DNA from: Candidatus Hydrothermarchaeota archaeon
GTDB taxonomy: Archaea > CAYFZR01
Direction: 5' to 3'
DNA length: 64,000 nucleotides
NCBI GenBank assembly: GCA_046760505.1
Contig: JBHIEG010000004.1
Coordinates: 23,111 to 87,110 of the forward strand
Part shown: in pieces, positions 14,539 to 64,000 of the stretch
How positions within the stretch are numbered: the stretch's first letter is position 1
How the letters are laid out: each line of letters starts with the position of its first letter
Translations under genes and position numbers: made by a program
The notes under the pieces: generated by a model
Told to the model about the DNA's origin: nothing
Seen by the model: only the letters and a program-made list of their open reading frames with translations
The model's database searches: none

Positions 14539-14877
14539 TTACAGTTTACCCATTAAAATGAACGCTACTGCCAACCCATATAATGCTACTCCTTCCGCTA
14601 GACCAACCATAACGAGACTCCAAGCAACCATCTCTCTCTTCTCTGCTATAGCGCCTAGTGCTGCTGATCCTGCTGTACCAACGCCTATTCCTGCTCCGGT
14701 GCAGGCAAGACCGGCAGATAGGCCAATTCCTATTGCTATCCCGAGGGATTTTAAACCGTCCCCAACTGCGAGCTCTTCTATTTTTTCTTCTCCTTGTGCA
14801 AGTACAGGTATTGTGCAAATCAAAAATAGTATCAAAAAGGCATTTAAAATTACAATTCCTTTTAACATCCTTTTCAT
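14539..14877 (-). CDS. atpK: A/V-type ATPase proteolipid subunit K/c, single hairpin, H+-type, with N-terminal leader
   Basis: GAGIGVGTAGSAALGAIAEK..GLAEGVALYGL with one Glu; lacks the Q and T/Q Na+ ligands; follows a subunit I gene. Confidence 0.9.
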   Translation of the reverse strand: MKRMLKGIVILNAFLILFLICTIPVLAQGEEKIEELAVGDGLKSLGIAIGIGLSAGLACTGAGIGVGTAGSAALGAIAEKREMVAWSLVMVGLAEGVALYGLAVAFILMGKL

Positions 14878-14924
14878 CCAATCCCTCCTTTTTATTGCTT
14901 TTTCTTATTGGCAATCATTGCGTT

Positions 14925-52286: not shown

Positions 52287-52393
52287 TTCTTCATATTTCT
52301 ATAACTCTATAAATCTACGAAAAATTTGAAATGCGAAAATTTTAAATAACGATAAGGTCACCGATATACTCGCAAAAATTGATTTAAGGAAGG

Positions 52394-52639
52394 ATGAGTG
52401 GCTTAATGGGGAGTAAACCAAAATTTATCATTACTTGTGACTACTGTAAAAAAGAAACCGATAAAATCGTTGAATGTTACATGTGCGGAAAACTTACCTG
52501 TTTAGATTGCGAAAGAATACTTGCCGGACATTACTCCGATGGAAGACTTTTCGCACATATAGTGTGTCCCTCTTGCAAAGTTGAGGCGACATATCCTAGA
52601 TTCAAGGTTTACGAAGAAAAAGAGGAAAAGGGAAAGTAA
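52394..52639 (+). CDS. small double zinc-finger protein
   Basis: Four CxxC pairs (CDYC, CYMC, CLDC, CPSC). Confidence 0.75.
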   Translation: MSGLMGSKPKFIITCDYCKKETDKIVECYMCGKLTCLDCERILAGHYSDGRLFAHIVCPSCKVEATYPRFKVYEEKEEKGK

Positions 52640-52646
52640 TTCTGAT

Positions 52647-52838
52647 TTATTCTTTACTAAACTCTCTTATCACGGCATAGATATTTGTAAAAAAACCTGC
52701 AAAAAAGCCACAAATGAAACCGATTGTTGACCAGGTTGTACCGAATTTTTTTCCGATGAGGTACCCAATAAATCCAAATAAGATGCTAGATAAAGCCAAT
52801 TTTACCCCAAAAGTCATGGCTTGGATAGTTTTTCTCAT
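52647..52838 (-). CDS. AtpZ/AtpQ (ATP synthase gene 1)-like two-TM protein
   Basis: GVKLALSSILFGFIGYLIGKKFG..GFFAGF pattern; last gene of the I-K-C module; paralog of 60363..60572. Confidence 0.7.
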   Translation of the reverse strand: MRKTIQAMTFGVKLALSSILFGFIGYLIGKKFGTTWSTIGFICGFFAGFFTNIYAVIREFSKE

Positions 52839-52886
52839 TTTACATCTTTTCTCATTTTACATCATTTATCTTATATCGTTTTTATC

Positions 52887-53219
52887 TTACATCGTTTCGA
52901 TGTATAAAATTTCTATCATGAGTGATGTGAATGAAATAAAGAGGATGAGGCAGTATATTTTACCAATCGTGCTCTTTACTATCACTTTGTGCATAACAAG
53001 CACCACGCCCAATGAGGAAAGCGCGAGCCAGAGGGATATTCCGAAAGTGATGTAAAGTAGATTTACTTTTGCTAGGAGCAGCAACCCATAGAAGAACCCA
53101 ACCAAAATTAATTGTAAACTGAGGGTGGAAACTAAAAAAATATCATTTGCATGCTCTACTCGTGCCAAAATTTGTCTTTTTCTAAGTCGTTTCAAGAGCC
53201 AGATATTTGTCGATTTCAT
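52887..53219 (-). CDS. small hydrophobic membrane protein (possible UncI/AtpR-like)
   Basis: About three TM helices; lies between the C subunit and the AtpZ-like gene; start uncertain. Confidence 0.5.
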   Translation of the reverse strand: MKSTNIWLLKRLRKRQILARVEHANDIFLVSTLSLQLILVGFFYGLLLLAKVNLLYITFGISLWLALSSLGVVLVMHKVIVKSTIGKIYCLILFISFTSLMIEILYIETM

Positions 53220-54342
53220 CCGGGCTCAAGCCCTCCTGTATTCCCGTTAGTATACTGCGGACACAATCAATCTCAATCTCTTTTATTAGTAAGAAGGCGA
53301 TTATTGGACCGGCTCCAAATGATCTTTTCAGTGAGATATCCCGCACTCTACTAATCAAAATTTTTTGTAGGTATTTCTCAATTCCAACGTAGTCTTTATC
53401 TCTCTCAAATTCCTTAATGGCTTGTGTTATGAACTCCCCATAGGGAGTAGCAGTTAATAGATTTAATATATCCTCTATCTTATCCAGCTGGACAAGGCTG
53501 TTCATGGTTTCTGGATCGATTTCAAATCCTGGGTAAATTAAATTCTCTTTTATGGTTTCTGGTGGTACCTGATCCACTTTTAATCTGATGATAAGTCTTA
53601 TATTGGTAATATCTATAATGGTCCCGATTAGAGTGAGAAGATCTTCTCTGTCCTCCCCCTTAATGTCTTCTATGAGTCGATGGCATTTCGAGAAATAATA
53701 TCTAAATAAAAGAGTTGTTAGTGGCGATATCGAGCCGGTTTCTCTCCAGTCTCGAACACCTTCTGTAATCAGTGCAGCGTACTCTGTTTCGTCTAACTTG
53801 GGCAAAATTTCACCTAACTCTTGAGTCTCGTACATTGATTTTACTAGATCAAAATCGATTGTTCCTATTCTGATTAGATCGACTGGCATTTCAATGATTC
53901 TTTCCTTTGAATATGCCTCTAATAGGACTCTTTTAATGTTTCTGATATCCCATCTTGCTCTAACAAATGAATCAAAAAAGCCCCTTAGGTGCTGAGGAAT
54001 AACAAGGTCAATTTCCTCCTGAGTATGTGCCAGATATAACCTCAGACCCACTTCGTATCCGTTTTCCAGACTCAGGTAGGTGGGATAGTCCAAACCTTCG
54101 AGGCTGGATATGAACACTGGAACGTTATCAGCCTCTGTTAATTCCTTGATTTTGGAGGAAGAAAGGAGTTTGCCTTCCATTGTTCTTATACCTGAAACGG
54201 GATAGAAATAAGGTATTTTTCTGTACAGCCATTGTACTGTCGGGGCTATTAGAATTGCAATTAGCATGAAACCTAGGAAAATAACAATTATCAGAGCTGC
54301 CTCGAATCCCACTAGTTCTACCAGATAATCAAACAACCCCAA
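53182..54342 (-). CDS. atpC: A/V-type ATPase subunit C (d), paralog A
   Basis: N-terminal TM; YPVSGIRTMEGKLL; WDIRNIK; IDITNIRLIIRLK; FLLIKEIEI. Confidence 0.85.
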   Translation of the reverse strand: MGLFDYLVELVGFEAALIIVIFLGFMLIAILIAPTVQWLYRKIPYFYPVSGIRTMEGKLLSSSKIKELTEADNVPVFISSLEGLDYPTYLSLENGYEVGLRLYLAHTQEEIDLVIPQHLRGFFDSFVRARWDIRNIKRVLLEAYSKERIIEMPVDLIRIGTIDFDLVKSMYETQELGEILPKLDETEYAALITEGVRDWRETGSISPLTTLLFRYYFSKCHRLIEDIKGEDREDLLTLIGTIIDITNIRLIIRLKVDQVPPETIKENLIYPGFEIDPETMNSLVQLDKIEDILNLLTATPYGEFITQAIKEFERDKDYVGIEKYLQKILISRVRDISLKRSFGAGPIIAFLLIKEIEIDCVRSILTGIQEGLSPDEIDKYLALETT

Positions 54343-54352
54343 TCAGATGCAC

Positions 54353-54829
54353 CTATCCGAGTAGACCGGAGTTCAGTAAGATCATGACAGCCATGACAAA
54401 TCCCAGTATAGCGAAGAATTCTGCCATTATTCCAAATACCATGGATTTTCCGAATACTTCTTCATTCTTCGCAGTGGCGCTTATGCCCCCTGCACAGGTT
54501 ATTCCCTGCCCTATTGCTGTTAGACCTGCTACTCCCATGCATAAACCCGCAGCAATAGCAGCGAGGCTTACTGGACTTGTAATCTCCTTTCCTGAAAGAA
54601 GGGCGCCAGAAAGAATGAATATACCTACCAAAAATCCGTAGATCCCCTGAGTTTGAGGTAATTGCTGTAGTATTAGGGATTTACTGAACTTCTTCGGATC
54701 TTGCGCAGTAACTCCAGCTGCAGAGGCTCCAGCAATACCGACACCCAGTGCTGCCCCGAATCCCGCAATTCCAACTGATAGTCCAATACCTATGGTTGCG
54801 AGAGCAGCAGTTTGCGTCAATTCAACCAT
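54353..54829 (-). CDS. atpK: A/V-type ATPase subunit K/c, two hairpins, one Na+-type site
   Basis: LPQTQGIYG, AIGQG, MAEFFAILG; GAGGTG RBS before ATG 54829. Confidence 0.92.
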   Translation of the reverse strand: MVELTQTAALATIGIGLSVGIAGFGAALGVGIAGASAAGVTAQDPKKFSKSLILQQLPQTQGIYGFLVGIFILSGALLSGKEITSPVSLAAIAAGLCMGVAGLTAIGQGITCAGGISATAKNEEVFGKSMVFGIMAEFFAILGFVMAVMILLNSGLLG

Positions 54830-56945
54830 AGTCACACCTCCTTAATTTTGTATATTTTCTTACAGCGCGGAAGGGAATGTACTTATCTCCTCCACCTTCA
54901 TAGAACTTTCCAAATAATTCTGCATAGTGTAATCTCAATGAATGGATGAATCCACCGAGAGAATTTAATCCGAAACTTGTCAAGTGTCCTATGAACAATA
55001 TCAAAAATACCAAGAAAAGTGCAAGTAAACCAAAAGGAGATTTCATTCCATTGCTTATTATACCAAAGATGCTTGTGTATCCACCTATCTCTGCCAATCC
55101 CATGGTGGTTGCCAAGATATAAGCAGTTACATTTACAGCTAGAGCCAAGCCACCCGTTGCCATTGCAAGCGCCAGAATTCTTGAATAAGAGATCAGATCG
55201 CCAAGAAGTCCGGTACAATCGAAAAAGCCTAGTGGACCTCCGCGTACTATTACTAATGCAGAGCCAACCAAGAGCAAGTAGAGTCCATATTTGAAGGCTT
55301 TTTCAGTGATAGCTTTAACTCCAAACAACTTGAATAACACAAGTATTAGGCCTATTTCGAGTGTCAATAATCCAACTTGACCTATAGCTTCTCTCAAGTT
55401 TTTATTCTCTAACGCATTCTTGAAAGAAATGAGAATCCCTATATCCATATGAACGGCTCCCAAAAGTACTGAAACTACTAATACTAGCAAAACCGGACTT
55501 ATTGGATGGCCTAAAAACAGTAATGACTCGGTAGCAAAGGGATCTACCCATATAGGCTTTGTTTCAAAGTTTAGGAAACGTTCTGAAAAATCTCCAAGGT
55601 AACTGCCTGTTAGAATACCGAAGAATATTGCTGAGAGTCCGCCTATTATAAGGATACTAGAAACGTCGTTTATACTCTCGTTGATTTTTCCATGACCCTT
55701 TTTCACGAGCAGGGCAAAAATTACGGCCATCAACCCGTAAATAGCATCTGTTAGCATAAAACCAAAGAATACTGTGAAGAAAACTGCTATTATCAAGGTT
55801 GGATCGAGTTCTCCCTTCTTTGGTAGTCCAAACATTCCGGTCAGCATCTCGTAAGGCTTTATAAGCTTGGGATTCTCAAGCAGAACCGGAGGCTCTTCTT
55901 CAGAGGAACTTTGGGCTTCCTCTACCAATACACATCCATCGGTAATTTCCTCGGATAGTTTCTTTACCCTATCAAGATTTCTCTTTGGACACCATGCCTC
56001 AAGGATAACAGCGTTTTTTGTCTCAAGAAGGAAAGGGGTTATTCCTTCTCTCTCAGCCTCTATGACAGAGATTTCATGGTTTAATAGCATGTTCCACTCA
56101 TTTTCTTTGACAATTTCGTATGCCGATTCAATTATCCTCTTTTCTTCGGCCTCTAGTTCATCAAGGGCTCTTTCTATTTTCTCTACAGACTCTGAAGGCG
56201 TACCTTCAACTTCTGGCAATTCAATAGACTCAAACTTAACTTTCAACAAAAAATCGTTTACCACTTCCATAAACTCATTGGTTGTTATTACAACCACTAG
56301 TGATCTTCCGTCTATCTCTTCGGCGTGGAAAAATAAGCATTCATTTGTTAAAGATCTTAAAATTTCTAATTCTTTCACTTTCTCCAGAGATATAGTACCG
56401 ATCCAGATTTTGCAAAACTTGTAATTTTCTTCCTTTAAATACTCAACATTTACATCTAAAGGTTCCAGCAATTTTAGTGTATTTAAATAATCCCTAAACC
56501 TGTCTTTTTCAGAATCGATTTCGTTCAGTCTTGTCTCAAAAACACTTACCTCATTCTCGATTTCCGATATGCTGGTCTCTAGACGGTTAATCAGCTCATC
56601 TACTTCAAGTTTGTCTATCTCTTCCCCTTCTATAACTCCTGGAAACAAAGCCGAGTAAATGTTGTTCAGCGCTGCTCGAACTTTTGATTTTAAATTTCCT
56701 TTTTTTGTTTCAGAACCTTTTATATCTTTTATTACATCGAAAAATGTGAGTATACGCCTGAACCTCATTGAGAAGTGCAGAAAAATACGCTCTTCACCCT
56801 TTGATTCTTCAGCAAATTCTGATAATTCTTTGCTGGTTTCTTTAACTTGGAGAAGCCCTTCTTCGTGCAGCGCTCTGATGAGGGGGGCAGCAAAGTATTT
56901 ATGCGTAACTATTACTACCTTTTTCATCTCTGCAGGCCGCATCAT
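54822..56945 (-). CDS. atpI: A/V-type ATPase subunit I (a), paralog 2
   Basis: MRPAEMKK, PPVLLENP, GFMLTDAIYG, SYSRILALAMATGG, HSLRLHYAELFGKFY. Confidence 0.93.
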   Translation of the reverse strand: MMRPAEMKKVVIVTHKYFAAPLIRALHEEGLLQVKETSKELSEFAEESKGEERIFLHFSMRFRRILTFFDVIKDIKGSETKKGNLKSKVRAALNNIYSALFPGVIEGEEIDKLEVDELINRLETSISEIENEVSVFETRLNEIDSEKDRFRDYLNTLKLLEPLDVNVEYLKEENYKFCKIWIGTISLEKVKELEILRSLTNECLFFHAEEIDGRSLVVVITTNEFMEVVNDFLLKVKFESIELPEVEGTPSESVEKIERALDELEAEEKRIIESAYEIVKENEWNMLLNHEISVIEAEREGITPFLLETKNAVILEAWCPKRNLDRVKKLSEEITDGCVLVEEAQSSSEEEPPVLLENPKLIKPYEMLTGMFGLPKKGELDPTLIIAVFFTVFFGFMLTDAIYGLMAVIFALLVKKGHGKINESINDVSSILIIGGLSAIFFGILTGSYLGDFSERFLNFETKPIWVDPFATESLLFLGHPISPVLLVLVVSVLLGAVHMDIGILISFKNALENKNLREAIGQVGLLTLEIGLILVLFKLFGVKAITEKAFKYGLYLLLVGSALVIVRGGPLGFFDCTGLLGDLISYSRILALAMATGGLALAVNVTAYILATTMGLAEIGGYTSIFGIISNGMKSPFGLLALFLVFLILFIGHLTSFGLNSLGGFIHSLRLHYAELFGKFYEGGGDKYIPFRAVRKYTKLRRCDYG

Positions 56946-56961
56946 CTAAGTACACCATGGA

Positions 56962-57378
56962 CTAAAGTGCCTTCAACTCGACCTTGAACACATTTTCAAC
57001 CTGCCTTATGTCATCGGCTAATTTTTCAAGGTTTGCTTTATCAGGTCCGGAGAGAAATCCTTCCCAAATACAAGCTTCTTTTGCATAGCAAAATCCAGTT
57101 GTATGTATGATCTTCACTTTTGCATCTGCCAGCTTCAATTCTAACTTGTGAGTGGTGTCGTAGATATCCTTTGCAACGATCCTCAATTTGTACAGTTCTT
57201 TATCGATCTTCATTAATCTAACTTGCTTCCTCTCTGGAATTAATATGGTAGCCACTGCATCTCCATCCTTTAGATTTAAGGCTTCCAGAATATTTTTAGG
57301 GATTTCGATTTTTCCATCTTTAATTTCACACCTCTCTCCTACGGATATCTCCGGAAACTCTTCAACTTTCTTTTCCAT
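56962..57378 (-). CDS. AbrB/MazE-like plus ACT-like domain protein
   Basis: DGKIEIPKNILEALNLKDGD (AbrB signature) followed by a beta-alpha-beta-beta-alpha-beta pattern. Confidence 0.7.
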   Translation of the reverse strand: MEKKVEEFPEISVGERCEIKDGKIEIPKNILEALNLKDGDAVATILIPERKQVRLMKIDKELYKLRIVAKDIYDTTHKLELKLADAKVKIIHTTGFCYAKEACIWEGFLSGPDKANLEKLADDIRQVENVFKVELKAL

Positions 57379-57791
57379 ACTTCCACCTCTAAACTTTTAA
57401 TCAGGTCCAAATAATCTTCTCCAGCTTTTGAAAGAACTATCTTATCGTTTTGTCTCTCGACAAGACCCAAAACCTCCAACATTTTAGATCTTCTTTCTAT
57501 AAGACCCCTAGGCAGGCCTGTTAGAGTTTCTATTTGCTCTATATCATGAACTCCTGTTCCCGCGGTTTTAAGTATTAATGTCCCTGCTTCACCGAGTCTT
57601 ATTTCAGTTTTTCTTAGTAAATTCTCAATGCGCTTAAACTGGAGTGGCAGGAGGAGCCAATAACCCACAATTGATGCGATTGTTGCTATAATTACTGAGG
57701 CCCATATCAATACGTTTAGACCAAAATAAGATATGAGCAATACTATCACGAAGATGCCAATACTTCCCATTGATGCGATGTTGACTCTCAT
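57339..57791 (-). CDS. membrane protein with C-terminal winged-helix domain
   Basis: Two TM helices, then IEQIETLTGLPRGLIERRSKMLEVLGLV..LSKAG. Confidence 0.72.
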   Translation of the reverse strand: MRVNIASMGSIGIFVIVLLISYFGLNVLIWASVIIATIASIVGYWLLLPLQFKRIENLLRKTEIRLGEAGTLILKTAGTGVHDIEQIETLTGLPRGLIERRSKMLEVLGLVERQNDKIVLSKAGEDYLDLIKSLEVEVWKRKLKSFRRYP

Positions 57792-58008
57792 TGAAATTTT
57801 CCCCCATGTTGTTATTTCAAGTTTGATCTAAAATAATATATTAAATTTTTCGTATATAATGCCCTGATAGTTGTAATTAAAATTAAGAACAGTTGATAGA
57901 ATACCTTATACAAAAAACCCCGAGTCTCATCGTTTTTTCTCCAAAAAAAGTTGTATGCATTTTAAAAAAAAATTGTAAGAAAATTATATAAAAAATGTAC
58001 AAAGGAGT

Positions 58009-59478
58009 TTATTCTTCTTCCACCCTCTTTATTAGTTTTACAATACTCTCTCCTTTTCTGGTTAATTTTAGTCCTTTTTCCGTTTCTGCAACCAAACCCA
58101 TCAATCTGAGCACTCTCAGTCTTTCTTCTATTCTATGTCTCGGTAATCCGGTGGTGGACTCTATTCCTTCAATGTCTTTAGCCCCATAGTGGATTGACAT
58201 TGTTATAAGGCGACCCATCTCGCCTAGGTCAATATCAAGCCTGGTTCTAATTGCTTCCGGCTCAAACAATTCTATTACTGGAACTGCCACTCCATATTCA
58301 ATGAGTTTTTGAGTTTGTTCAGAGTCATATCCCTCTTCCTTGCATTTAAGAACTGTTCTAATATCATTAATTTCATTCTCCCTTTGAAGTAGATAGTTTA
58401 CGAGCGGTGAAATAGAAAAAGGCTGCCTTAAGGAGAGTGCCAACTCAGTCTCCAACAAGAATTCATCAAGTTTTCTTTCAAAAGGAATTATTGACCCGAT
58501 TTCTTCGTATTCGGGCAATAGTTCACTTATTATTCTACCGTAAGGAGTTCCCTCGAGACCGCTTATGACCTCTTCTACGTTATATGCCTCTGCTAGGCTC
58601 AAGAGAACCTCAGGCATTATGTTATAGCCAATCGGTATGAGCAGACTTTTTATGTCTTCCGGAGAAACGTTCTCTGACTTCAGTCTTAGCAGATTCTTTA
58701 TATTTTCTATGTCAATCCATGTTCCGAGGAATACCTTGAACATCTTTAGCTCATCTGTTAAACCTGATGCAACCAGCGACCAAACTTTAAAGTAGTAATA
58801 CCTGTCTAGAGCACTTTCCAGGACCAAAAGAGATTTTTTCTCTTCATAATCCGGTAAAACTTCCTTGAGAACATTCGCATACTCCGTACCCTCGAGTTTT
58901 GAGATGAATTCTTCCATACTCCTAGAATCAGCAAGGGTTTCCAACTCAGTTAGGTCAAGATCGCCAATGGGTATCATCGTATTGATATCTGGCATTACAT
59001 TTGCATGGATCGCCCTGATTATCTTTTTTAGGTTTTTTATTTCCCATCTCTTCGTCCATGCAGCAACAATCCTTTTGGCATCTTCTGGAGAGTAATGTAA
59101 AATCTTCTCGTATACATCCTTCAAACAGCGGTTAAACATAATTTCAGCATCGAATAATCCCTTGCTTTCCGCTAAAACTTCTTCTGTATATTTCCCATAT
59201 TCTGTATCGCCCAGGTTTACCATAGCTTCAATCAAAGAATCAGATTCTAAAAGTTGATTGAATTTAGGTTTGCCGATGTATTTTGCTTCCATTGCCCGAA
59301 TTTTTGCGTTAAGCAAAGAATATGGTGCAATATCTGTCACGAACCTAATAATGGGTATAATGATGATTATAAAACACAGAATCGCCAAAAGAAGAACTAG
59401 AAAGAAGAAAATTTGAGGATGGTCTGAAAATCCAAAAACTTCTGCAATGGCTAGGTAATCTTCGATACCGCCTACCAT
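58009..59478 (-). CDS. atpC: A/V-type ATPase subunit C (d), paralog B, fused to a C-terminal winged-helix domain
   Basis: PYSLLNAKIRAMEAK, WEIKNLK, LEGTEY, IDIENIKNLLRLK, ENEINDIR, then IESTTGLPRHRIEERLRVLRLMGLV..LTRKG. Confidence 0.88.
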   Translation of the reverse strand: MVGGIEDYLAIAEVFGFSDHPQIFFFLVLLLAILCFIIIIIPIIRFVTDIAPYSLLNAKIRAMEAKYIGKPKFNQLLESDSLIEAMVNLGDTEYGKYTEEVLAESKGLFDAEIMFNRCLKDVYEKILHYSPEDAKRIVAAWTKRWEIKNLKKIIRAIHANVMPDINTMIPIGDLDLTELETLADSRSMEEFISKLEGTEYANVLKEVLPDYEEKKSLLVLESALDRYYYFKVWSLVASGLTDELKMFKVFLGTWIDIENIKNLLRLKSENVSPEDIKSLLIPIGYNIMPEVLLSLAEAYNVEEVISGLEGTPYGRIISELLPEYEEIGSIIPFERKLDEFLLETELALSLRQPFSISPLVNYLLQRENEINDIRTVLKCKEEGYDSEQTQKLIEYGVAVPVIELFEPEAIRTRLDIDLGEMGRLITMSIHYGAKDIEGIESTTGLPRHRIEERLRVLRLMGLVAETEKGLKLTRKGESIVKLIKRVEEE

Positions 59479-59510
59479 AACTTTACACCGCTTGTACCTT
59501 TGAGTGGAAT

Positions 59511-60239
59511 TTAACCAAACAGCCCAGTGCCGTACATTATTAGCAAAGCAATCAACAGGCCAAATATCGCGAAAGTTTCAGACATAACTGCCAATACAAT
59601 GCTTTTTCCCATTGTAGCGGGCTCTTTTGCAGCCGCTCCTATTCCACTTGCCGCAGTTATTCCCTGTCCTATTCCCGATAGTCCTGCTAGCCCTACAGAA
59701 GCACCTGCTCCAATTGTTGCGAGTCCTACCATGGGTGAGAGTGCTTTACCCATCGTACCTATGATACCAGCGAAAACAAGCAATAGTATAGCCGTGAGTA
59801 ACCCATAGATTGCCTGGGTCTCAGGCAATACGGAGAATACCATTCCCTTACCGAATACCTCTGGATTCTCTGATGTTGCCCCTATTCCACTTGCCGCTGC
59901 TATTCCTTGTCCTATGGCAGATAAACCTGCCATACCAACTCCTATTCCTGCTCCAAGAGATGCCATAGCCATAAGAGCGGAAAAACCCTCTCTTGGAGCC
60001 TTCGTTATTAGTCCAGTCCCTAGAAGTATTAATATCGCTGTCAATAATCCATAAATGGCTTGAGTTTGTGGCAGCGCTGAGAATACGATTGTTACGCCAA
60101 ATTTCTCTGGGCTCTCCGATATCACGGTGGCTCCTGCAGCCCCAGTTATACCTACACCAATTCCAGATCCTACCGCTGCAATTCCCATTGCAAGACCTGC
60201 TCCAACTGCTGCAAGAGCGAGATTAACATCCAATGGCAT
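59511..60239 (-). CDS. atpK: A/V-type ATPase subunit K/c, three hairpins, two Na+-type sites
   Basis: LPQTQAIYG, LPETQAIYG, MSETFAIFG; IGQG in hairpins 2 and 3. Confidence 0.93.
   Translation of the reverse strand: MPLDVNLALAAVGAGLAMGIAAVGSGIGVGITGAAGATVISESPEKFGVTIVFSALPQTQAIYGLLTAILILLGTGLITKAPREGFSALMAMASLGAGIGVGMAGLSAIGQGIAAASGIGATSENPEVFGKGMVFSVLPETQAIYGLLTAILLLVFAGIIGTMGKALSPMVGLATIGAGASVGLAGLSGIGQGITAASGIGAAAKEPATMGKSIVLAVMSETFAIFGLLIALLIMYGTGLFG
59777..59855 (-). repeat. 79-bp exact block shared (inverted) with 63442..63520
   Basis: The reverse complement TTCGGTAAGGGAATGGTATTCTCC..CTATTGCTTG is identical in both K genes. Confidence 0.9.
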
Positions 60240-60362
60240 ATTTTCATTCCCCCGTTACGGCAGATGTTGTTACAAACAGTTCACAAAATTTATATTATTA
60301 AAGATTTCGGAGTAAAATTAAAGATTGTAGTAAAAAAATTAGAACATAATGTTGTAAAAAAA

Positions 60363-60572
60363 TTAAATATCCAATGAGAGAATCCTTTTGATCCCTATGA
60401 AGAATCCAAACAACAATCCTATAGTTAGACCTAAAACAGTTTGAATTTCACCGAACTTTCTCCCGATAAAATATCCCAAAAATGTGCAAATTACAATGGT
60501 GAATGCTAATTCCGTTCCGATTGTTATTCCCCTTATCCAAGTTATGGTTTTTTTGTCTGGTCTAGAGGCCAC
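60363..60572 (-). CDS. AtpZ/AtpQ (ATP synthase gene 1)-like two-TM protein
   Basis: IGTELAFTIVICTFLGYFIGRKFG..GLLFGFFIG. Confidence 0.75.
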   Translation of the reverse strand: MASRPDKKTITWIRGITIGTELAFTIVICTFLGYFIGRKFGEIQTVLGLTIGLLFGFFIGIKRILSLDI

Positions 60573-60661
60573 TTTTATCCCGCTCTATAACTCTTTTATG
60601 GGCGATAAAATATAAATACCCATTCAATAAATTACAACGTAGAAGAGACGGGGGCTTAACA

Positions 60662-60976
60662 GTGGTTGTAGAGGCATTGATGACCATAAAAAAAGTCGAA
60701 AATGAGTGTCTAAAGAAAATAGAAGACGCAGAAAAGGAAGCAGAAAGAATGATTGAAAATGCTGAGATAGAAGCTTCTGACATGCTCAAAAAGGCTGAAG
60801 AAGAGGCAAAAGATCATGTAAGGAAATTAATCGAAAAAGCGAGAGAGGAAGCAGAGGAAGAAGCCTCAAAAATACTCAAAGAGGGTGAAAAAGAGTCAGA
60901 AGAATTAAAAAAAAGAGCTATTAGAAAACTCGATGAGGCCGTTGATGCAATAATAAAGCCAGTTCTTGGACTTTGA
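60662..60976 (+). CDS. atpH: A/V-type ATPase subunit H (G-like peripheral stalk)
   Basis: E/K/A-rich coiled coil ending LDEAVDAII; directly before a subunit I gene. Confidence 0.85.
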   Translation: MVVEALMTIKKVENECLKKIEDAEKEAERMIENAEIEASDMLKKAEEEAKDHVRKLIEKAREEAEEEASKILKEGEKESEELKKRAIRKLDEAVDAIIKPVLGL

Positions 60977-60997
60977 ATATTGTTCAGAGGGAAATCT

Positions 60998-63046
60998 ATG
61001 TTTAGACCAGCGAGAATGCAAAAATTAAAAGTAGTTACTTTAGACGTGTACAAACACGATCTTGTAAGGAACCTTCATGAACTGGGAACTGTCCAACTCT
61101 ATGATCTTTCTGATAAAGTTTCGGCACCTGATTTGGCAAAGATCGTTAGAAAAGATGAACCCTCGGAAATCGGCCGCAAGGTTTCCCCCCTTCTCATGAG
61201 GATCGGAAGGGTTTTATCTATTTTTGAGTCTGCCAAACCAGAACAAAAAATAAATCCTATAAAAGCATTTTTTGCTCCTAATGAGCCCAAAAAAATAAAA
61301 ATTAAAAAGAGGGAGCCTGAGGAATTAATTGAAGAAACAAACAAAATATTGAATGATATCGAGCCGTTAGTTCAAGAACTTGAGAGAAACTTGAATTCTT
61401 TAGAAGAGAGAGGAGAACAGATTGATGCTCTTCTCAAAGTGATGGACGAGTTAAAACACATAGATGTGAATTTAGAGTTACTCTATGATGGTCCTTATGT
61501 ATCTATCTTATGTGGGTCGTTGCCCGCTGGCAAGGACTTAACCAACGTAATACTCGCCGAAGCAAACGGTGAAGCAATAACGAAAACAAAAATAATCGAC
61601 GAAGAGCATGCTATACTGGTGGTTGCCGTTTCTAAGGAGTATCTCGAAAATGTTAGTGAAGTTTTGAGAAGAGCGGGATTTGAGGCGTTTGAATTACCTT
61701 CTGGTCTAAGAGGCCATCCTTCCAAGGTAACTTCAGATTTAAAGGAAGAATTGATTGAAATAAACTCAAAAAAAGATAAAATCCTTTCCGAGATAAGAGA
61801 ACTGTCTGATAATTGGGAGGATAAATTGCTGGCAATTCAAGAAGAACTTACGATAGAGAAGGAGAGAGGAGAAGTAAGTATGAACTTCTTGAAGACTGAA
61901 AATGCCTTTATGTTGGAAGCATGGGTTACTGCAAAGAACTCTCCGGAAACTGTGAGGAAAATAGAGCATATAACGGATGGACATTGTGTAATCGAAATTT
62001 CAAATCCGATTAATGAGCCTGTAGAGGAGATTCCCGTACTCTTTGATAATCCAAAGATATTCAGGCCTTTTGAACTCTTAACCGAAACTTTTTCACCTCC
62101 AAGATACGATGAAATCGATCCTACGATAATATTTGCGATTGCATTTCTAATCTTTTATGGCTTGATGCTTTCTGATGCTTTTTACGGTATCATAATAGGA
62201 TTGATAGGTTTTGGACTTTTCAGAGGGGCTGGAAAATACAATATGGGAGTAAGAAAGTTCAGCGTAATACTAATGTCCGCAGGAGCCAGCACGGTGGTTA
62301 TAGGAGCCTTGTTGGGAGGTTGGCTGGGAGATCTACCAACAAGGTTGCATGAGGCGGGAATAATCCCTTTTAAGATACCCGCGATATGGTTTGAACCTCT
62401 TGGAAAAGAAAATATAAGTTTTCTTGGAACGGTTCAGAGCCCCCTAGTTGTTTTTCTTTTAACGGCATTGATATTCGGGCTTATCCACATAAATATTGGA
62501 GTTCTAATAGGTCTCTACCTCTCCGTAAAAAGGAAGCGATATATGGAGGCGGTAAGCGAACATTTGTGGTTATGGTTTTTCCAACCGGGCATGTACGTGC
62601 TGGTGACCTCCACGTTGTTTGGTTTGGAGTTTAGCCCTTTCATAAAGAAAATTGCAGTCCTAATAACAATAGTATCTCTGTTGATGCTTTTGGTTAGACC
62701 AGAATTCCCTTACATAGATCCAATGGGCTTTTTTGATATTACGGGTTATATAGGTGACTTTTTATCCTATGCAAGGTTACTTGCATTAGGATTGGCCACT
62801 GGAGGAATTGCTATGACGGTAAACATGCTTGCCGGAATGGTAAAAGCAACTCCTTATATTGGATTGATATTAATGGTAATAGTATTCATCGTGGGTCACA
62901 CATTTAACATGGCGATGAACGGACTTGGAGCCTTTGTTCATTCGCTTAGGTTACACTACGTAGAATTCTTCGGAAAATTTTATGAGGGCGGCGGCAAAAG
63001 ATTCACGCCCTTTAAAGTAAATCGAGAGGTTACAGTAGTGGAATAG
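60998..63046 (+). CDS. atpI: A/V-type ATPase subunit I (a), paralog 3 (probable main operon)
   Basis: MFRPARMQKL, GLMLSDAFYG, SYARLLALGLATGGIA, HSLRLHYVEFFGKFYEGGG. Confidence 0.95.
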   Translation: MFRPARMQKLKVVTLDVYKHDLVRNLHELGTVQLYDLSDKVSAPDLAKIVRKDEPSEIGRKVSPLLMRIGRVLSIFESAKPEQKINPIKAFFAPNEPKKIKIKKREPEELIEETNKILNDIEPLVQELERNLNSLEERGEQIDALLKVMDELKHIDVNLELLYDGPYVSILCGSLPAGKDLTNVILAEANGEAITKTKIIDEEHAILVVAVSKEYLENVSEVLRRAGFEAFELPSGLRGHPSKVTSDLKEELIEINSKKDKILSEIRELSDNWEDKLLAIQEELTIEKERGEVSMNFLKTENAFMLEAWVTAKNSPETVRKIEHITDGHCVIEISNPINEPVEEIPVLFDNPKIFRPFELLTETFSPPRYDEIDPTIIFAIAFLIFYGLMLSDAFYGIIIGLIGFGLFRGAGKYNMGVRKFSVILMSAGASTVVIGALLGGWLGDLPTRLHEAGIIPFKIPAIWFEPLGKENISFLGTVQSPLVVFLLTALIFGLIHINIGVLIGLYLSVKRKRYMEAVSEHLWLWFFQPGMYVLVTSTLFGLEFSPFIKKIAVLITIVSLLMLLVRPEFPYIDPMGFFDITGYIGDFLSYARLLALGLATGGIAMTVNMLAGMVKATPYIGLILMVIVFIVGHTFNMAMNGLGAFVHSLRLHYVEFFGKFYEGGGKRFTPFKVNREVTVVE

Positions 63047-63057
63047 GAGGAGTTGAT

Positions 63058-64000
63058 ATGCCAATGAACCCAAATGTTGCCCTTGCAGCTGTAGGAGCAG
63101 GTCTTGCAATGGGACTCTCTGGTATTGGATCTGGAATTGGTGTAGGTATAACTGGGGCTGCTGGAACCGGTGTAATAGCTGAGGATCCCGGTAAATTTGG
63201 CACGGCTATTGTATTTCAGGCACTGCCACAAACTCAAGCCATTTATGGATTATTGACAGCGATATTAATACTTCTCGGAACCGGTTTACTGGCGGGAGCG
63301 CCAAAAACAGATTTCAATTTATTAATGGGTCTTGCCTCTTTGGGAGCAGGAATAGGAGTTGGTATGGCAGGTTTGTCTGCCATAGGACAGGGGATAGCAG
63401 CGGCAAGTGGAGTTGGAATTACAGCAGAGGCGCCGGAGATGTTCGGTAAGGGAATGGTATTCTCCGTATTGCCTGAGACCCAGGCAATCTATGGGTTACT
63501 CACGGCTATACTATTGCTTGCCTCTACCGGCGTCCTCGCCGGCGCAGGAAAAGTAGCACCTTACGAAGATTTTTACTTCCTTGCGGGCCTAGCTGGTGTA
63601 GGCGCAGGAGTTGCAGTAGGTTTAGCAGGCTTATCTGCCATAGGACAGGGGATAGCGGCCTCAGCAGGCATTGGAGCCTCCAGAGAAGTACCTGAAATAT
63701 TCGGTAAGGGAATGGTATTCTCCGTATTGCCTGAGACCCAAGCAATCTATGGGTTGCTGATTGCCATACTGCTACTAGTATTTTCAGGACTTTTAGGAAC
63801 GATTAAAGAGATTTCTCCCTTGGTTGGAGTTGCTTTAATCGGAGCAGGTGCTTCTGTAGGATTAGCGGGACTATCGGGAATAGGACAGGGAATAACTGCT
63901 GCCGGAGGAATCGGTGCGGCTGCAAAAGAGCCCGCTACAATGGGTAAAAGTCTAGTCCTCTCGGTAATGTCCGAGACGTTCGCGATATTTGGCCTGTTAA
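63058..64000 (+). CDS. atpK: A/V-type ATPase subunit K/c, four hairpins, three Na+-type sites (3' end outside window; not in ORF track)
   Basis: Hand translation of 314 open codons from ATG 63058 (GGAGGAG RBS): LPQTQAIYG, LPETQAIYG, LPETQAIYG, MSETFAIFG. Confidence 0.92.
   Translation, partial: MPMNPNVALAAVGAGLAMGLSGIGSGIGVGITGAAGTGVIAEDPGKFGTAIVFQALPQTQAIYGLLTAILILLGTGLLAGAPKTDFNLLMGLASLGAGIGVGMAGLSAIGQGIAAASGVGITAEAPEMFGKGMVFSVLPETQAIYGLLTAILLLASTGVLAGAGKVAPYEDFYFLAGLAGVGAGVAVGLAGLSAIGQGIAASAGIGASREVPEIFGKGMVFSVLPETQAIYGLLIAILLLVFSGLLGTIKEISPLVGVALIGAGASVGLAGLSGIGQGITAAGGIGAAAKEPATMGKSLVLSVMSETFAIFGLL
63442..63740 (+). repeat. 41-bp exact direct repeat within the 4-hairpin K gene
   Basis: TTCGGTAAGGGAATGGTATTCTCCGTATTGCCTGAGACCCA at 63442 and 63700 (258 bp = 86 codons apart). 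Confidence 0.9.

What the first reader, a model, noticed from the sequence alone, without database searches (positions are those of the whole stretch)
52647..64000. Rotor-subunit ladder (2, 3, 4 hairpins; 1, 2, 3 Na+ sites): candidate gear-shifting A-type ATP synthase
Seen: three adjacent units, namely [TM-wHTH, AbrB-ACT, I, K2, C, small TM, atpZ-like], [atpZ-like, K3, C-wHTH] and [H, I, K4...]. In each K the first hairpin has Q instead of the essential E and the last lacks the Q/Y ligands, so n hairpins give n-1 sites: densities 1/2, 2/3 and 3/4. The two accessory K genes each have their own C(d) adaptor, and no A/B genes are in those units. Known: sites per ring set the ion/ATP ratio. Two- and three-hairpin subunits are known from separate species (Pyrococcus, E. 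hirae; Methanocaldococcus jannaschii). I know of no characterised four-hairpin subunit or of such a set in one genome. Inference: interchangeable or mixed rotors on a shared catalytic head would tune the ion/ATP ratio to available energy, or switch between synthesis and pumping.
Basis: partly seen in the sequence, partly recalled or inferred. Interest (0 to 1): 0.92.

Follow-up and report, generated by a model that had tools for sequence, protein, structure and literature searches.

The report
One ATPase head, four rotor sets
An uncultured archaeon from a hydrothermal-vent metagenome encodes a single ATP-synthase head but four different membrane rotor/stator gene sets, which may let one enzyme change its coupling ion and its ions-per-ATP ratio; so far this rests on gene content alone.

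Summary
Window 52647-64000 holds three units: [TM-wHTH, AbrB-ACT, I, K2, C, small TM, AtpZ-like], [AtpZ-like, K3, C-wHTH] and [H, I, K4...]. K2, K3 and K4 have 2, 3 and 4 hairpins. The motifs give n-1 Na+ sites.

K4 is cut by the contig end. A unique 55-nt overlap joins it to a contig carrying E-C-F-A-B-D. A, B, D, E, F and H are single-copy in a MAG rated 100% complete.

K1 has one hairpin, resembles the Thermus type and lacks Na+ ligands.

All sets recur in the one congeneric genome under strong purifying selection (dN/dS 0.01-0.15 for the I, K and C genes).

Four- to six-hairpin K genes are common in databases, so K4 alone is not new. Extra I-K-C sets beside one A1 also occur in two other archaeal families.

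Best reading (about 0.5): alternative Ao sectors share one A1 head and differ in ion (H+ or Na+) and in sites per hairpin. Six marker families of primary ion pumps or methanogenesis were not found, so pumping is as likely as synthesis. Expression, ring sizes and assembly are untested. I rate it a new variant of a known kind.

The parts
57339..57791 (-). Unit 1, gene 1: 150-aa protein with N-terminal TM helices and a C-terminal winged-helix domain (putative membrane-anchored regulator)
   Evidence: ORF. No Pfam hit above cut-off. ESM-Atlas leads to MarR/ArnR1-like wHTH, TM 0.48-0.56. 36.7% identical over 98 aa to the C-terminal region of the 489-aa C. dN/dS 0.074 vs G001.
56962..57378 (-). Unit 1, gene 2: 138-aa AbrB/MazE-like + ACT-like protein (putative ligand-sensing regulator)
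   Evidence: NCBIfam NF006352 E 2.2e-8 over the full length (below cut-off) and TIGR01439 AbrB E 0.0023. Atlas structure TM 0.72-0.75 to clusters carrying PF04014 + PF01842. A paralogous pair with the wHTH gene lies on contig C16 beside FeoB/DtxR-like genes. dN/dS 0.035.
54822..56945 (-). Unit 1: stator subunit I (a), 707 aa, full length with the N-terminal cytoplasmic domain
   Evidence: PF01496 E 1.7e-22. Best PDB match is E. hirae Na+ V-ATPase subunit I, 8wci_P, E 1.3e-34. The Arg of the S-Y-x-R motif aligns to chain R573. 34% identical to the main I. dN/dS 0.076.
54353..54835 (-). Unit 1: K2, 160 aa, two hairpins, one predicted Na+ site (E. hirae NtpK type)
   Evidence: PF00137 x2. 2bl2_A E 1.1e-20, with all six aligned site positions conserved. 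dN/dS 0.034, 94.9% identical to G001.
53182..54342 (-). Unit 1: subunit C (d), 386 aa with an N-terminal TM helix; very divergent
   Evidence: PF01992 E 1.4e-61. 26-29% identical to the other three C. In 1.84 billion representatives the hits are 84% (the G001 ortholog by identity; one search gives 83.2%), then 37%, 32%, and the rest at most 31%. Modelled docking on the single D: score 0.89 vs best control 0.12. dN/dS 0.069.
52887..53219 (-). Unit 1: 110-aa hydrophobic protein of no known family
   Evidence: ORF. No family. Conserved in G001 at 67% identity, dN/dS 0.24.
52647..52838 (-). Unit 1: 63-aa AtpZ/AtpI-like protein (PF09527)
   Evidence: PF09527 E 2.6e-7, 31.0 bits vs cut-off 26.6. One of only two copies in the genome.
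60363..60572 (-). Unit 2: 69-aa AtpZ/AtpI-like protein (PF09527), divergent from H across 89 nt
   Evidence: PF09527 E 2.3e-8, 34.4 bits.
59511..60239 (-). Unit 2: K3, 242 aa, three hairpins, two predicted Na+ sites (M. jannaschii type)
   Evidence: PF00137 x3. NCBIfam NF004913 283 bits vs cut-off 211, covering 5-218 of 220. Hairpins match K4 h1, h2 and h4 at 74, 78 and 88%. Outer helices are 72/81 identical to K4. 98.8% identical to G001, dN/dS 0.013.
58009..59478 (-). Unit 2: subunit C (d) fused to a C-terminal wHTH, 489 aa
   Evidence: PF01992 E 9.7e-81 over residues 56-390. Sister of the main C in the tree, support 99/99, 50% identity. Only one close homologue in 5.8 billion proteins (89%, G001); the next is at 36-39%. 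AF2: C domain confident, linker 397-416 below pLDDT 50, tail 417-489 low. dN/dS 0.047.
60662..60976 (+). Main operon: subunit H (peripheral-stalk G/H type), 104 aa
   Evidence: PF16999 E 6.2e-10. Single copy by tblastn.
60980..63046 (+). Main operon: stator subunit I (a), 688 aa
   Evidence: PF01496 E 8.5e-28. 40% identical to the I beside the six-hairpin K of G295.
63058..64000 (+). Main operon: K4, first 314 of 327 codons, four hairpins, three predicted Na+ sites. It continues on contig C2, followed by E-C-F-A-B-D.
   Evidence: PF00137 hits. NF004913 362.6 bits. The 55-nt overlap join is unique in the genome. Same gene and same continuation in G001 through a 113-nt overlap.
14925..16922 (-). 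Fourth set (outside the finding): stator subunit I', 665 aa
   Evidence: PF01496 E 4.7e-35. 40-41% identical to the I' of G295 and G315 but 30% to canonical I. Nearest database relatives 45-47%.
14539..14877 (-). Fourth set: K1, 112 aa, N-terminal presequence plus one hairpin. It has the Glu but no Na+ ligands, so an H+ site is predicted.
   Evidence: PF00137 x1. Best PDB match is T. thermophilus subunit K, 5gar_O, E 3e-10, aligned over 17-112 including the presequence. Motif A-E-G-V-A-L-Y, with Val at the inner-helix Gln position. The same type sits beside the I' of G295 and G315.

Best explanation
The locus is the membrane half of an ordinary archaeal A1Ao ATPase operon (H-I-K4, continuing E-C-F-A-B-D on the next contig) surrounded by extra membrane-sector (Ao) gene sets. 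These are I-K2-C with two regulators and two small membrane proteins; K3-C(wHTH) with an AtpZ-like protein; and, 38 kb away, I'-K1 with its C' elsewhere in the genome. The genome holds a single set of head, shaft and stalk genes (A, B, D, F, E, H). The extra sets are therefore most likely alternative Ao sectors that assemble with that one A1 head. They would give up to four enzyme forms. K1 is Thermus-like: one H+ site per hairpin. K2 is E. hirae-like: one Na+ site per two hairpins, with its own stator. K3 and K4 are M. jannaschii-like: 2/3 and 3/4 Na+ sites per hairpin. K3 would probably run against the main stator I, because its outer helices are almost those of K4. The AtpZ-like proteins would help ring assembly, and the wHTH and AbrB-ACT proteins would control which set is made. 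No marker of six primary-pump or methanogenesis families was found, so the enzyme may work largely as an ATP-driven pump, where fewer sites per turn give a steeper gradient. SHOWN: gene content, hairpin numbers, site motifs, single-copy A1, conservation and purifying selection. INFERRED: sharing of the head, separate rather than mixed rings, ion specificity, direction of operation, regulation.
For: (1) Copy numbers in G000 (2.17 Mb, completeness 100, contamination 5.67): K x4, I x3, C x4, A/B x1 each. H, E, F, A, B and D have no second tblastn hit at E<0.01 apart from A-B cross-hits.
(2) The sister genome G001 (completeness 100) has the same layout plus a fifth K, and also only 2 PF00006 matches.
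(3) Purifying selection between G000 and G001, with dS 0.7-1.6: K3 0.013, K4 0.023, K2 0.034, C-wHTH 0.047, C_u1 0.069, I_u1 0.076, I' 0.10, K1 0.147. For comparison A is 0.028 and B 0.019.
(4) All three I are full length and keep the S-Y-x-R Arg and the L-R-L-H-Y-x-E motif, as expected if they hold peripheral stalks and face a ring.
(5) The paralogues are old and of three recognisable kinds. K2 and I_u1 best match E. hirae NtpK and NtpI. K1 best matches Thermus K. K3 and K4 pass the NF004913 cut-off. The I are 30-34% identical to each other and the C 26-50%.
(6) K3 and K4 outer helices are 72/81 identical, against 25/54 for K2 and K4. This fits K3 lacking its own I and K2 having one.
(7) Model of the only D with the most divergent accessory C (residues 45-386): score 0.89, best of 3 controls 0.12. 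That mark was reached by 58 of 80 solved complexes and 2 of 110 mismatched pairs. The runs agree in at least 96% of contacts and partner pLDDT is at least 87. My own small alignments were used. d-D complexes are solved, so the pass may come from memory and shows likeness only.
(8) The same principle occurs elsewhere. G295 has C'-I'-K1 beside H-E-A-B-D, plus a separate I-K6-C. G315 has I'-K1-C' plus I-K-C. Each has 2 PF00006 matches. The C' form a 100/100 clade.
(9) Both PF09527 genes of the genome lie in the accessory units. That AtpI/UncI-type proteins help c-ring assembly is recalled knowledge.
Against: No assembly, expression or activity data exist. Both genomes are MAGs of 142 and about 90 contigs, so a second A1 set could be unassembled or unbinned. 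K4 itself is split over two contigs, and in G001 a 113-nt repeat makes the K4 join ambiguous. The three accessory C are only 26-50% identical to the main C, so fitting one D/F shaft is not self-evident. The docking model is a textbook pair and is not discriminating. K3 and K4 differ little in site density, so a 'gear' difference between them depends wholly on unknown ring sizes. The wHTH/AbrB-ACT pair is not ATPase-specific: a paralogous pair sits beside iron-transport genes. No shared operator motif was found in the promoter regions. Ion specificity is predicted from motifs only. Only six marker families were searched, so redox-loop or other ion-motive systems are not excluded.
Confidence: 0.5

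Rival explanations
1. Mixed (hetero-oligomeric) rotor: K2, K3 and K4 co-assemble in one ring, as in the A. woodii F/V hybrid ring or the yeast c/c'/c'' ring. Hairpin and site totals would then be set by the mixture, not by exchange of whole Ao sectors.
For: K3 and K4 have nearly the same outer helices (72/81), so they could pack in one ring and face one stator. Unit 2 has no I of its own. Hybrid rings are documented: A. woodii has nine one-hairpin subunits plus one V-type c (PMC9171764, passages read).
Against: A ring binds one d subunit, yet every K gene sits beside its own C, and unit 1 and the K1 set also carry their own I. K2 is far from K3/K4: outer helices 25/54 identical, hairpins 39-50%. 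Separate operons with their own promoter regions and regulators fit alternatives better than fixed partners.
Confidence: 0.13
2. A1-independent membrane modules: I-K-C sets that work without the catalytic head, for example as gated ion conductors, ion exchangers or a rotor for another task. The wHTH fused to C would report their state.
For: The accessory units carry no A1 or stalk gene at all. The C-wHTH fusion is unique to this genus among 5.8 billion proteins and has no known role in an ATPase. The I'-K1-C' module recurs as a separate unit in three families.
Against: All I keep the long N-terminal cytoplasmic domain, whose known role is to hold the E/H stalks. The C proteins keep the full PF01992 fold. 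The accessory C is modelled onto D like a normal d subunit (with the memory caveat). In G295 the I'-K1-C' module lies directly beside H-E-A-B-D. No A1-free function of a prokaryotic Ao is known to me (recalled).
Confidence: 0.15
3. Each set belongs to its own complete ATPase, and the further A1 genes are simply missing from the two MAGs. That would make this an ordinary case of several A-ATPases in one genome.
For: Several complete A-ATPases per genome are catalogued in 3% of archaeal genera, some with different ion specificity (ProAD, PMC11738941, passages read). In my own sample G105, G127, G327 and G365 have two A/B sets. Both genomes here are fragmented MAGs.
Against: Both MAGs are rated 100% complete, and each shows only one A and one B. 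There are no fragments of further A, B, D, E, F or H by tblastn at E<0.01. The accessory units lie on an 87-kb contig with no A1 gene beside them, whereas complete operons normally keep I-K-C with A-B-D.
Confidence: 0.1
4. Redundant or decaying paralogues, or assembly or binning artefacts, without a distinct function.
For: K genes are internally repetitive. The assembly breaks inside K4, and k=31 contigs of the runs fragment across K3/K4. Contamination is estimated at 5.67%.
Against: The same genes in the same order occur in a second species from another assembly. All frames are intact with dN/dS 0.013-0.24 at dS 0.7-1.6. Single contigs of the runs bridge 52000-59682 and 60141-63156 at even depth, though these runs may be the source.
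Confidence: 0.04

Closest known systems
Archaeal A1Ao ATP synthase operon (ahaH-I-K-E-C-F-A-B-D) with the M. jannaschii-type triplicated K
   Same: Gene order H-I-K then E-C-F-A-B-D. K3 and K4 exceed the cut-off of NCBIfam NF004913, the 220-position three-hairpin K model. The first hairpin lacks the carboxylate, so n hairpins carry n-1 sites. The triplication in M. jannaschii is described in PMC2359735 (passages read). C has the N-terminal TM helix seen in Methanococcales and Methanobacteriales C.
   Different: The main K has four hairpins. The genome adds three more K genes, two more I and three more C without further A1 genes.
Enterococcus hirae Na+-translocating V-type ATPase (NtpI, NtpK; K10 ring, one Na+ per two hairpins)
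   Same: K2 and the unit-1 I have these as their best solved relatives (E 1e-20 and 1e-34). The aligned site residues and the stator Arg are conserved. It works as an inducible Na+ pump beside another ATPase (recalled; general statement in PMC9171764).
   Different: E. hirae has a complete ntp operon with its own A, B, D, E, F and G. Here only I, K and C are present, plus two regulators, a small TM protein and an AtpZ-like protein.
Thermus thermophilus V/A-ATPase membrane sector (single-hairpin K with presequence, 12-mer H+ ring)
   Same: K1 aligns over its whole length, presequence included, to 5gar_O (E 3e-10) and keeps the Glu. I' has bacterial V-type I among its roughly 30% relatives.
   Different: K1 is below every NCBIfam equivalog cut-off (61.4 vs 101 bits). 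I'-K1 stands alone, its C' lies elsewhere, and no A1 is attached.
Acetobacterium woodii F/V-hybrid c ring and the yeast V-ATPase c/c'/c'' ring
   Same: Several rotor-subunit genes with different hairpin numbers and site densities serve one catalytic head, lowering the ions per turn (PMC9171764).
   Different: Those paralogues form one fixed mixed ring and share one a subunit (and one d in yeast). Here each K has its own C and two have their own I, which points to separate sectors.
Eukaryotic V-ATPase subunit isoforms (a1-a4 or Vph1/Stv1, d1/d2) on a common V1, with reversible V1-Vo dissociation
   Same: One head is combined with alternative membrane-sector isoforms that change the enzyme's properties (recalled knowledge, not from a call).
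   Different: The eukaryotic isoforms do not change hairpin number or coupling ion. Nothing comparable has been described for prokaryotes in the papers I searched.
Genomes with several complete rotary ATPases (ProAD survey)
   Same: H+ and Na+ forms coexist in one genome. 3% of archaeal genera have two or more A-ATPases, and seven genera have different predicted ion specificities (PMC11738941, passages read).
   Different: ProAD counts an enzyme only if A, B, D, I and K are all present. Here A, B and D are single, so the extra sets are not second enzymes by that definition.

Membership tests
A-type (A1Ao) ATP synthase, canonical operon | Genes for H, I, K, E, C, F, A, B, D in one cluster | tested here: met
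   H-I-K4 at 60662-64000. E-C-F-A-B-D lie on the reverse complement of the C2 end, joined by a unique 55-nt overlap. The same holds in G001.
Multi-hairpin K of the M. jannaschii type (NCBIfam NF004913) | Score above the curated cut-off (211 bits), and carboxylate missing from the first hairpin only | tested here: met
   K3 283.2 bits, K4 362.6 bits. Motifs P-Q-T-Q, then P-E-T-Q, then S-E-T-F.
V-type two-hairpin K with one Na+ site (E. hirae NtpK type) | Four helices; Na+ ligands on helix 2 (L, T, Q, and the Y aligned with NtpK Y68), helix 3 (Q) and helix 4 (E) | tested here: met
   K2 vs 2bl2_A, E 1.1e-20. All six aligned positions are identical. The ligand list is recalled.
V-type two-hairpin K with one Na+ site (E. 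hirae NtpK type) | NCBIfam equivalog cut-off for a two-hairpin K model | tested here: not met
   The best two-hairpin model, NF005124, scores 118.7 bits against a cut-off of 127. NF006219 scores 103 against 108.
Single-hairpin H+ K of the Thermus type | Presequence plus one hairpin with the Glu, and no E-[STQ]-[STQ]-x-x-Y / inner Q-E Na+ motif | tested here: met
   5gar_O E 3e-10 over residues 17-112. Motif A-E-G-V-A-L-Y, with Val at the inner position. The motif rule comes from preprint 10.64898/2026.10.01.756066 (passages). The NCBIfam equivalog cut-off is not reached (61.4 vs 101).
Second complete A-ATPase (ProAD criterion: A, B, D, I, K all present) | Own A, B and D for each I-K set | tested here: not met
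   PF00006 gives 2 matches in G000 and 2 in G001. D, E, F and H have no second tblastn hit.
Hybrid (mixed) rotor ring, A. woodii / yeast type | Different K species in one ring | not testable with these tools
   A ring exceeds the size limits of complex prediction. Only indirect arguments are available.
AtpI/AtpZ family (PF09527) | Pfam gathering score | tested here: met
   31.0 and 34.4 bits vs 26.6. These are the only two copies in the genome.
Alternative Ao sectors sharing one A1 (the claim itself) | Physical association of K1, K2 or K3 sectors with the single A3B3DF head | not testable with these tools
   Only a docking model of C_u1 on D exists: 0.89 vs control 0.12, a textbook pair that may come from memory.

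The most novel reading that the evidence does not exclude
A prokaryote runs one A1 head on four genetically encoded, exchangeable membrane sectors: an H+ sector (I'-K1-C'), a low-ratio Na+ sector (I-K2-C), and two high-ratio Na+ rotors (K3-C, K4-C on the main I). It thereby switches both coupling ion and ions per ATP according to conditions. The C-wHTH fusion and the membrane-anchored wHTH/AbrB-ACT pair would feed the assembly or ion state back to transcription. This would be a prokaryotic counterpart of V1-Vo reassortment and a natural 'gearbox'. In an organism without any of the six pump or methanogenesis markers searched, it would be the sole means of energising the membrane.
Probability: 0.25. 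Interest if true: 0.9.

Novelty: new variant of a known kind. Interest (0 to 1): 0.7.

Why it matters
Whether cells can change the ion/ATP ratio of a rotary ATPase is an old question. The accepted view is that ring size is fixed by the c-subunit sequence. Known variation lies between species, or in fixed hybrid rings.

Here one genome, and its sister species, keeps four rotor genes under selection. They have 1, 2, 3 and 4 hairpins and site densities of 1, 1/2, 2/3 and 3/4. They come with matching d and a subunits, yet there is only one head.

If the sectors are exchanged, this would be the first prokaryotic case of isoform-based retuning of a rotary ATPase, including a change of coupling ion. 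It would also supply natural parts for testing how site number sets thresholds for synthesis and pumping.

The specialist literature I read lists 1, 2, 3 or 13 hairpins (PMC9171764). Yet 4- to 6-hairpin K genes are widespread, including in cultured methanogens. Extra I-K-C sets beside one A1 also recur in other archaeal families. Surveys that count only complete ABDIK sets would pass over such sets.

Tried and rejected
Expression: the look-up of sequencing runs listed no RNA holder. Four DNA runs of one study, labelled hydrothermal vent metagenome, hold the stretch and may be its source. Nothing can therefore be said about expression.

Read laying used contigs only. It gives no independent support and no expression data. 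The K3/K4 repeats are broken into 121-237-nt pieces there, which says nothing about the genes.

Shared operators: a k-mer comparison of five promoter and intergenic regions gave only AT-rich words of 9-12 nt. No regulator site is proposed.

Wider relatives of the accessory sets:
- The genome-contig scan with C-wHTH found only the G001 contig.
- The metagenome scan with a C_u1 alignment gave 30 loci. Only 3 were close (81-85%). L022 is 99.86% identical to G001 contig C22 and so is not independent. The other 27 were ordinary C at 19-31% and were not examined.

N-terminal TM helix on C: at first it looked unusual. It is normal in Methanococcales and Methanobacteriales C, so I dropped it.

wHTH/AbrB-ACT as ATPase-specific regulators: rejected as specific, because a paralogous pair lies beside FeoB/DtxR-like genes.

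Structure of C-wHTH: the model shows only that the wHTH hangs on a low-confidence linker. I ran no fold search and take no functional insight from it.

Ring-size modelling was not possible within the limits of complex prediction.

Literature: searches found no description of several K genes with one A1, or of characterised 4- to 6-hairpin K. I read passages only of 10.64898/2026.10.01.756066, PMC3146512, PMC2359735, PMC11738941 and PMC9171764. Subscription papers, such as Müller 2004 (listed only as a reference), and all supplements were not seen. The ProAD tables and the c-subunit alignments in supplements could hold such cases.

Survey limits: the count of 18 genomes with two PF01992 matches is my reading of the table. 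198 of its match rows were not listed. Two matches can be one split gene. Only 14 of these genomes were checked for K, and only G295 and G315 were read.

Full report
WHAT IS THERE

The window is G000:C4:23111-87110 and ends exactly at the end of contig C4.

Unit 1 lies on the minus strand. Its genes abut or overlap:
- a 150-aa TM + winged-helix protein (57339-57791)
- a 138-aa AbrB/MazE + ACT-like protein (56962-57378)
- subunit I, 707 aa (54822-56945)
- K2, 160 aa (54353-54835)
- subunit C, 386 aa (53182-54342)
- a 110-aa hydrophobic protein (52887-53219)
- a 63-aa PF09527 (AtpZ/AtpI-like) protein (52647-52838)

Unit 2 is also on the minus strand:
- a 69-aa PF09527 protein (60363-60572)
- K3, 242 aa (59511-60239)
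- a 489-aa C with a C-terminal extension (58009-59478)

Unit 3 is on the plus strand, divergent from unit 2 across 89 nt: H (60662-60976), I of 688 aa (60980-63046), and K4 from 63058 running off the contig.

Pfam and NCBIfam confirm I, K, C, H and the two PF09527 proteins. The regulator assignments rest on weaker evidence. For the 138-aa protein they are NCBIfam NF006352 (E 2e-8, below cut-off), a weak AbrB hit, and ESM-Atlas feature and structure neighbours carrying PF04014 + PF01842. For the 150-aa protein there are Atlas leads to MarR/ArnR1-like winged helices only. The wHTH of that protein and the tail of the 489-aa C are homologous, at 41% over 82 aa.

THE END OF K4 AND THE CATALYTIC GENES

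The last 55 nt of C4 equal the first 55 nt of the reverse complement of contig C2. This 55-mer occurs nowhere else in the genome. Read through, K4 is 327 aa with four PF00137 repeats. It is followed by E, C, F, A, B and D.

The whole genome is 2.17 Mb in 142 contigs, with completeness 100 and contamination 5.67. It has two PF00006 matches, namely A and B. H, E, F, A, B and D have no second tblastn hit at E<0.01. By contrast there are three I genes, four C genes, four K genes and two PF09527 genes.

A FOURTH SET THAT THE FINDING MISSED

At 14925-16922 and 14539-14877 on the minus strand lie a third I (I', 665 aa) and a 112-aa K1. K1 has an N-terminal hydrophobic presequence and one hairpin.

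The fourth C (C', about 343 aa, without the N-terminal TM helix) sits on the 3-kb contig C86. It is not contamination. The sister genome has an 83% identical copy with the same neighbours on a 91-kb contig.

HAIRPINS AND SITES

In an alignment of the ten hairpins:
- Every first hairpin has P-Q-T-Q-x-I-Y on the outer helix and no Gln on the inner helix.
- Every middle hairpin has P-E-T-Q-A-I-Y and an inner G-Q-G.
- Every last hairpin keeps the Glu and the inner Gln but replaces the following ligands (S-E-T-F-A-I-F, or A-E-F-F-A-I-L in K2).

K2 aligns with E. hirae NtpK (2bl2_A, E 1e-20). K2 L59, T62, Q63, Y66, Q110 and E139 fall on L61, T64, Q65, Y68, Q110 and E139 of the chain. As I recall the structure, the site is built from helix 2 of one hairpin and helices 3 and 4 of the next. 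That is why n hairpins give n-1 sites.

K3 and K4 exceed the cut-off of NCBIfam NF004913, the three-hairpin K model. K1 has A-E-G-V-A-L-Y and a Val at the inner position. It fails the Na+ motif rule quoted in preprint 10.64898/2026.10.01.756066. Its best solved relative is the Thermus thermophilus K, aligned with its presequence (5gar_O, E 3e-10). It is predicted to bind H+.

THREE KINDS OF MEMBRANE SECTOR

The paralogues are old. The three I are 30-34% identical to each other. The C are 26-31% identical, except C of unit 2 and the main C at 50%. Those two are sisters in a tree with 99/99 support.

- K3 corresponds position by position to K4 lacking one middle hairpin: 74, 78 and 88% identity for h1, h2 and last. 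Its outer helices are 72/81 identical to those of K4, against 25/54 for K2. This fits K3 having no I of its own and K2 having one.
- The unit-1 I has E. hirae NtpI as its best solved relative (8wci_P, E 1e-34), with the stator Arg aligned.
- I', K1 and C' form a separate, conserved kind. I' is 40-41% identical to the I' of G295 and G315 but 30% to canonical I. The three C' form a 100/100 clade. All K1 share the presequence and the A-L-A-E-G-x-A-x-Y-G motif.

ARE THE EXTRA SETS REAL AND IN USE?

The only congeneric genome in the collection, G001, comes from another assembly. All other genomes are related only at domain level. G001 has the same three units in the same order on one contig, I'-K1 on another and E-C-F-A-B-D on a third. 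It also has part of a fifth K with at least three hairpins. It too has only two PF00006 matches.

Between the two species dS is 0.7-1.6 and dN/dS is low:

| Gene | dN/dS |
|---|---|
| K3 | 0.013 |
| K4 | 0.023 |
| K2 | 0.034 |
| C-wHTH | 0.047 |
| C of unit 1 | 0.069 |
| I of unit 1 | 0.076 |
| I' | 0.10 |
| K1 | 0.147 |
| small proteins | 0.05-0.24 |
| A (comparison) | 0.028 |
| B (comparison) | 0.019 |

The accessory genes are maintained as strictly as the core enzyme.

Contigs of four public runs bridge 52000-59682 and 60141-63156 at even depth. These runs may be the source of the assembly, so this is not independent support.

HOW UNUSUAL IS IT?

Four-hairpin K is not rare. The K4 search returned many K of about 320, 400 and 480 aa, that is 4, 5 and 6 hairpins. 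They include Methanocalculus, Methanolinea mesophila, Methanofollis fontis and Methanomicrobium at about 481-484 aa, and a Hydrothermarchaeaceae MAG at 321 aa and 70% identity. G018 and G012 have a four-hairpin K as their only K. The six-hairpin K of G295 follows the same n-1 pattern. The specialist literature I could read still lists 1, 2, 3 or 13 hairpins (PMC9171764; PMC2359735).

What is unusual is the set. Among 401 archaeal genomes, only G000 and G001 have more than two PF01992 matches, with four each. By my reading of the table 18 others have two. Of those 18:
- four have two A/B sets, so they are ordinary double ATPases;
- among the 14 checked for K, G295 and G315 have a second K with one A/B pair.

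G295 carries C'-I'-K1 next to H-E-A-B-D and a separate I-K6-C. G315 carries I'-K1-C' and I-K-C. The principle of more than one Ao set for one A1 therefore exists in at least three families, but only this genus has four or five rotor genes. ProAD, a survey of GTDB genomes, reports several complete A-ATPases in 3% of archaeal genera but counts only complete A-B-D-I-K sets (PMC11738941). I found no paper describing extra Ao sets.

CONTEXT

The genome has no match to McrA, to NuoL/Mrp-type antiporter subunits, to NuoH, to membrane pyrophosphatase, to RnfD/NqrB or to the decarboxylase beta subunit. It has three Na+/H+ exchanger genes. No known primary pump marker among those searched is present. 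The organism may be a fermenter that energises its membrane with the ATPase. In that direction fewer sites per turn give a steeper gradient (PMC9171764). Other ion-motive systems were not searched for.

MECHANISM PROPOSED

I take the sets to be alternative Ao sectors for one A1 head. The arguments are:
- head, shaft and stalk genes are single-copy;
- all I are full length with the stalk-binding N-terminal half and the catalytic Arg;
- each K has a C of its own;
- both PF09527 genes, a family whose bacterial members assist c-ring assembly (recalled), lie beside K2 and K3;
- unit 1 has its own regulators;
- unit 2 and the main operon have a divergent arrangement.

A model of the single D with the most divergent accessory C scored 0.89 against a best control of 0.12. 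That mark was reached by 58 of 80 solved complexes and 2 of 110 mismatched pairs. The runs agreed in at least 96% of contacts and partner pLDDT was at least 87. My own small alignments were used. Because d-D complexes are solved, this shows likeness, not binding.

With ring sizes unknown, the ions per ATP cannot be computed. Only the site densities (1, 1/2, 2/3, 3/4) and the predicted ions (H+ for K1, Na+ for the rest) are given by the sequences.

The C-wHTH fusion is found in only two sequences among 5.8 billion. Its wHTH hangs on a low-confidence linker. Its role is unexplained.

VERDICT

Ring-size compensation, expression and physical sharing remain open. I rate it a new variant of a known kind, with interest 0.7.

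Noticed in passing
window 14539-16922 (-): A third stator gene (I', 665 aa) and a single-hairpin K1 with a presequence and no Na+ ligands. This fourth Ao set was not mentioned in the finding. The same I'-K1-C' kind occurs in G295 and G315.
   Followed up: yes
G000 contig C86:775-1767; L052 7601-8632 (G001): A fourth subunit C (C', no N-terminal TM helix) stands alone beside an epimerase-like gene. It is 83% identical in the sister genome, with the same neighbours, on a 91-kb contig there.
   Followed up: yes
L018 (G295:C46) and L019 (G295:C13); L020, L021 (G315): Other archaeal families also carry two Ao sets for one A/B pair. G295 has I-K6-C flanked by universal-stress-like genes, plus C'-I'-K1 beside H-E-A-B-D. 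G315 has I-K-C plus I'-K1-C'.
   Followed up: partly
L014 1-467 and L013 12518-12652 (G001): The sister species has a fifth K gene of at least three hairpins, split between two contigs. Its last hairpin shares a 113-nt exact repeat with K4 and is followed by a second TM-wHTH + AbrB-ACT pair.
   Followed up: partly
G000 contig C16:15437-16287: A paralogous TM-wHTH + AbrB-ACT gene pair (34% and 48% identical to the unit-1 pair) lies next to FeoB- and DtxR-like genes. The pair is therefore a general two-gene regulator cassette.
   Followed up: partly
window 58009-59478 (-), residues 395-489: A winged-helix domain is fused to the C-terminus of an ATPase d subunit through a roughly 20-residue low-confidence linker. 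Only two such sequences were found among 5.8 billion proteins. The function is unexplained.
   Followed up: partly
window 51417-52286 (+) and G000 contig C16:18392-19246: A thioredoxin-like domain is fused to a V4R-like C-terminal region (289 aa; Pfam E 3e-9 and 3e-4). A 285-aa look-alike by sequence inspection lies near the second regulator pair.
   Followed up: no
whole genome G000: No match to McrA, PF00361, PF00146, H+-PPase, RnfD/NqrB or OAD-beta, but three Na+/H+ exchanger genes. The organism may have no primary ion pump other than the ATPase.
   Followed up: partly
window 52394-52639 (+): An 81-aa Cys-rich protein (weak zinc-ribbon hits only) lies between the thioredoxin-V4R gene and unit 1. 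It is conserved in G001 (86% identity, dN/dS 0.06).
   Followed up: no
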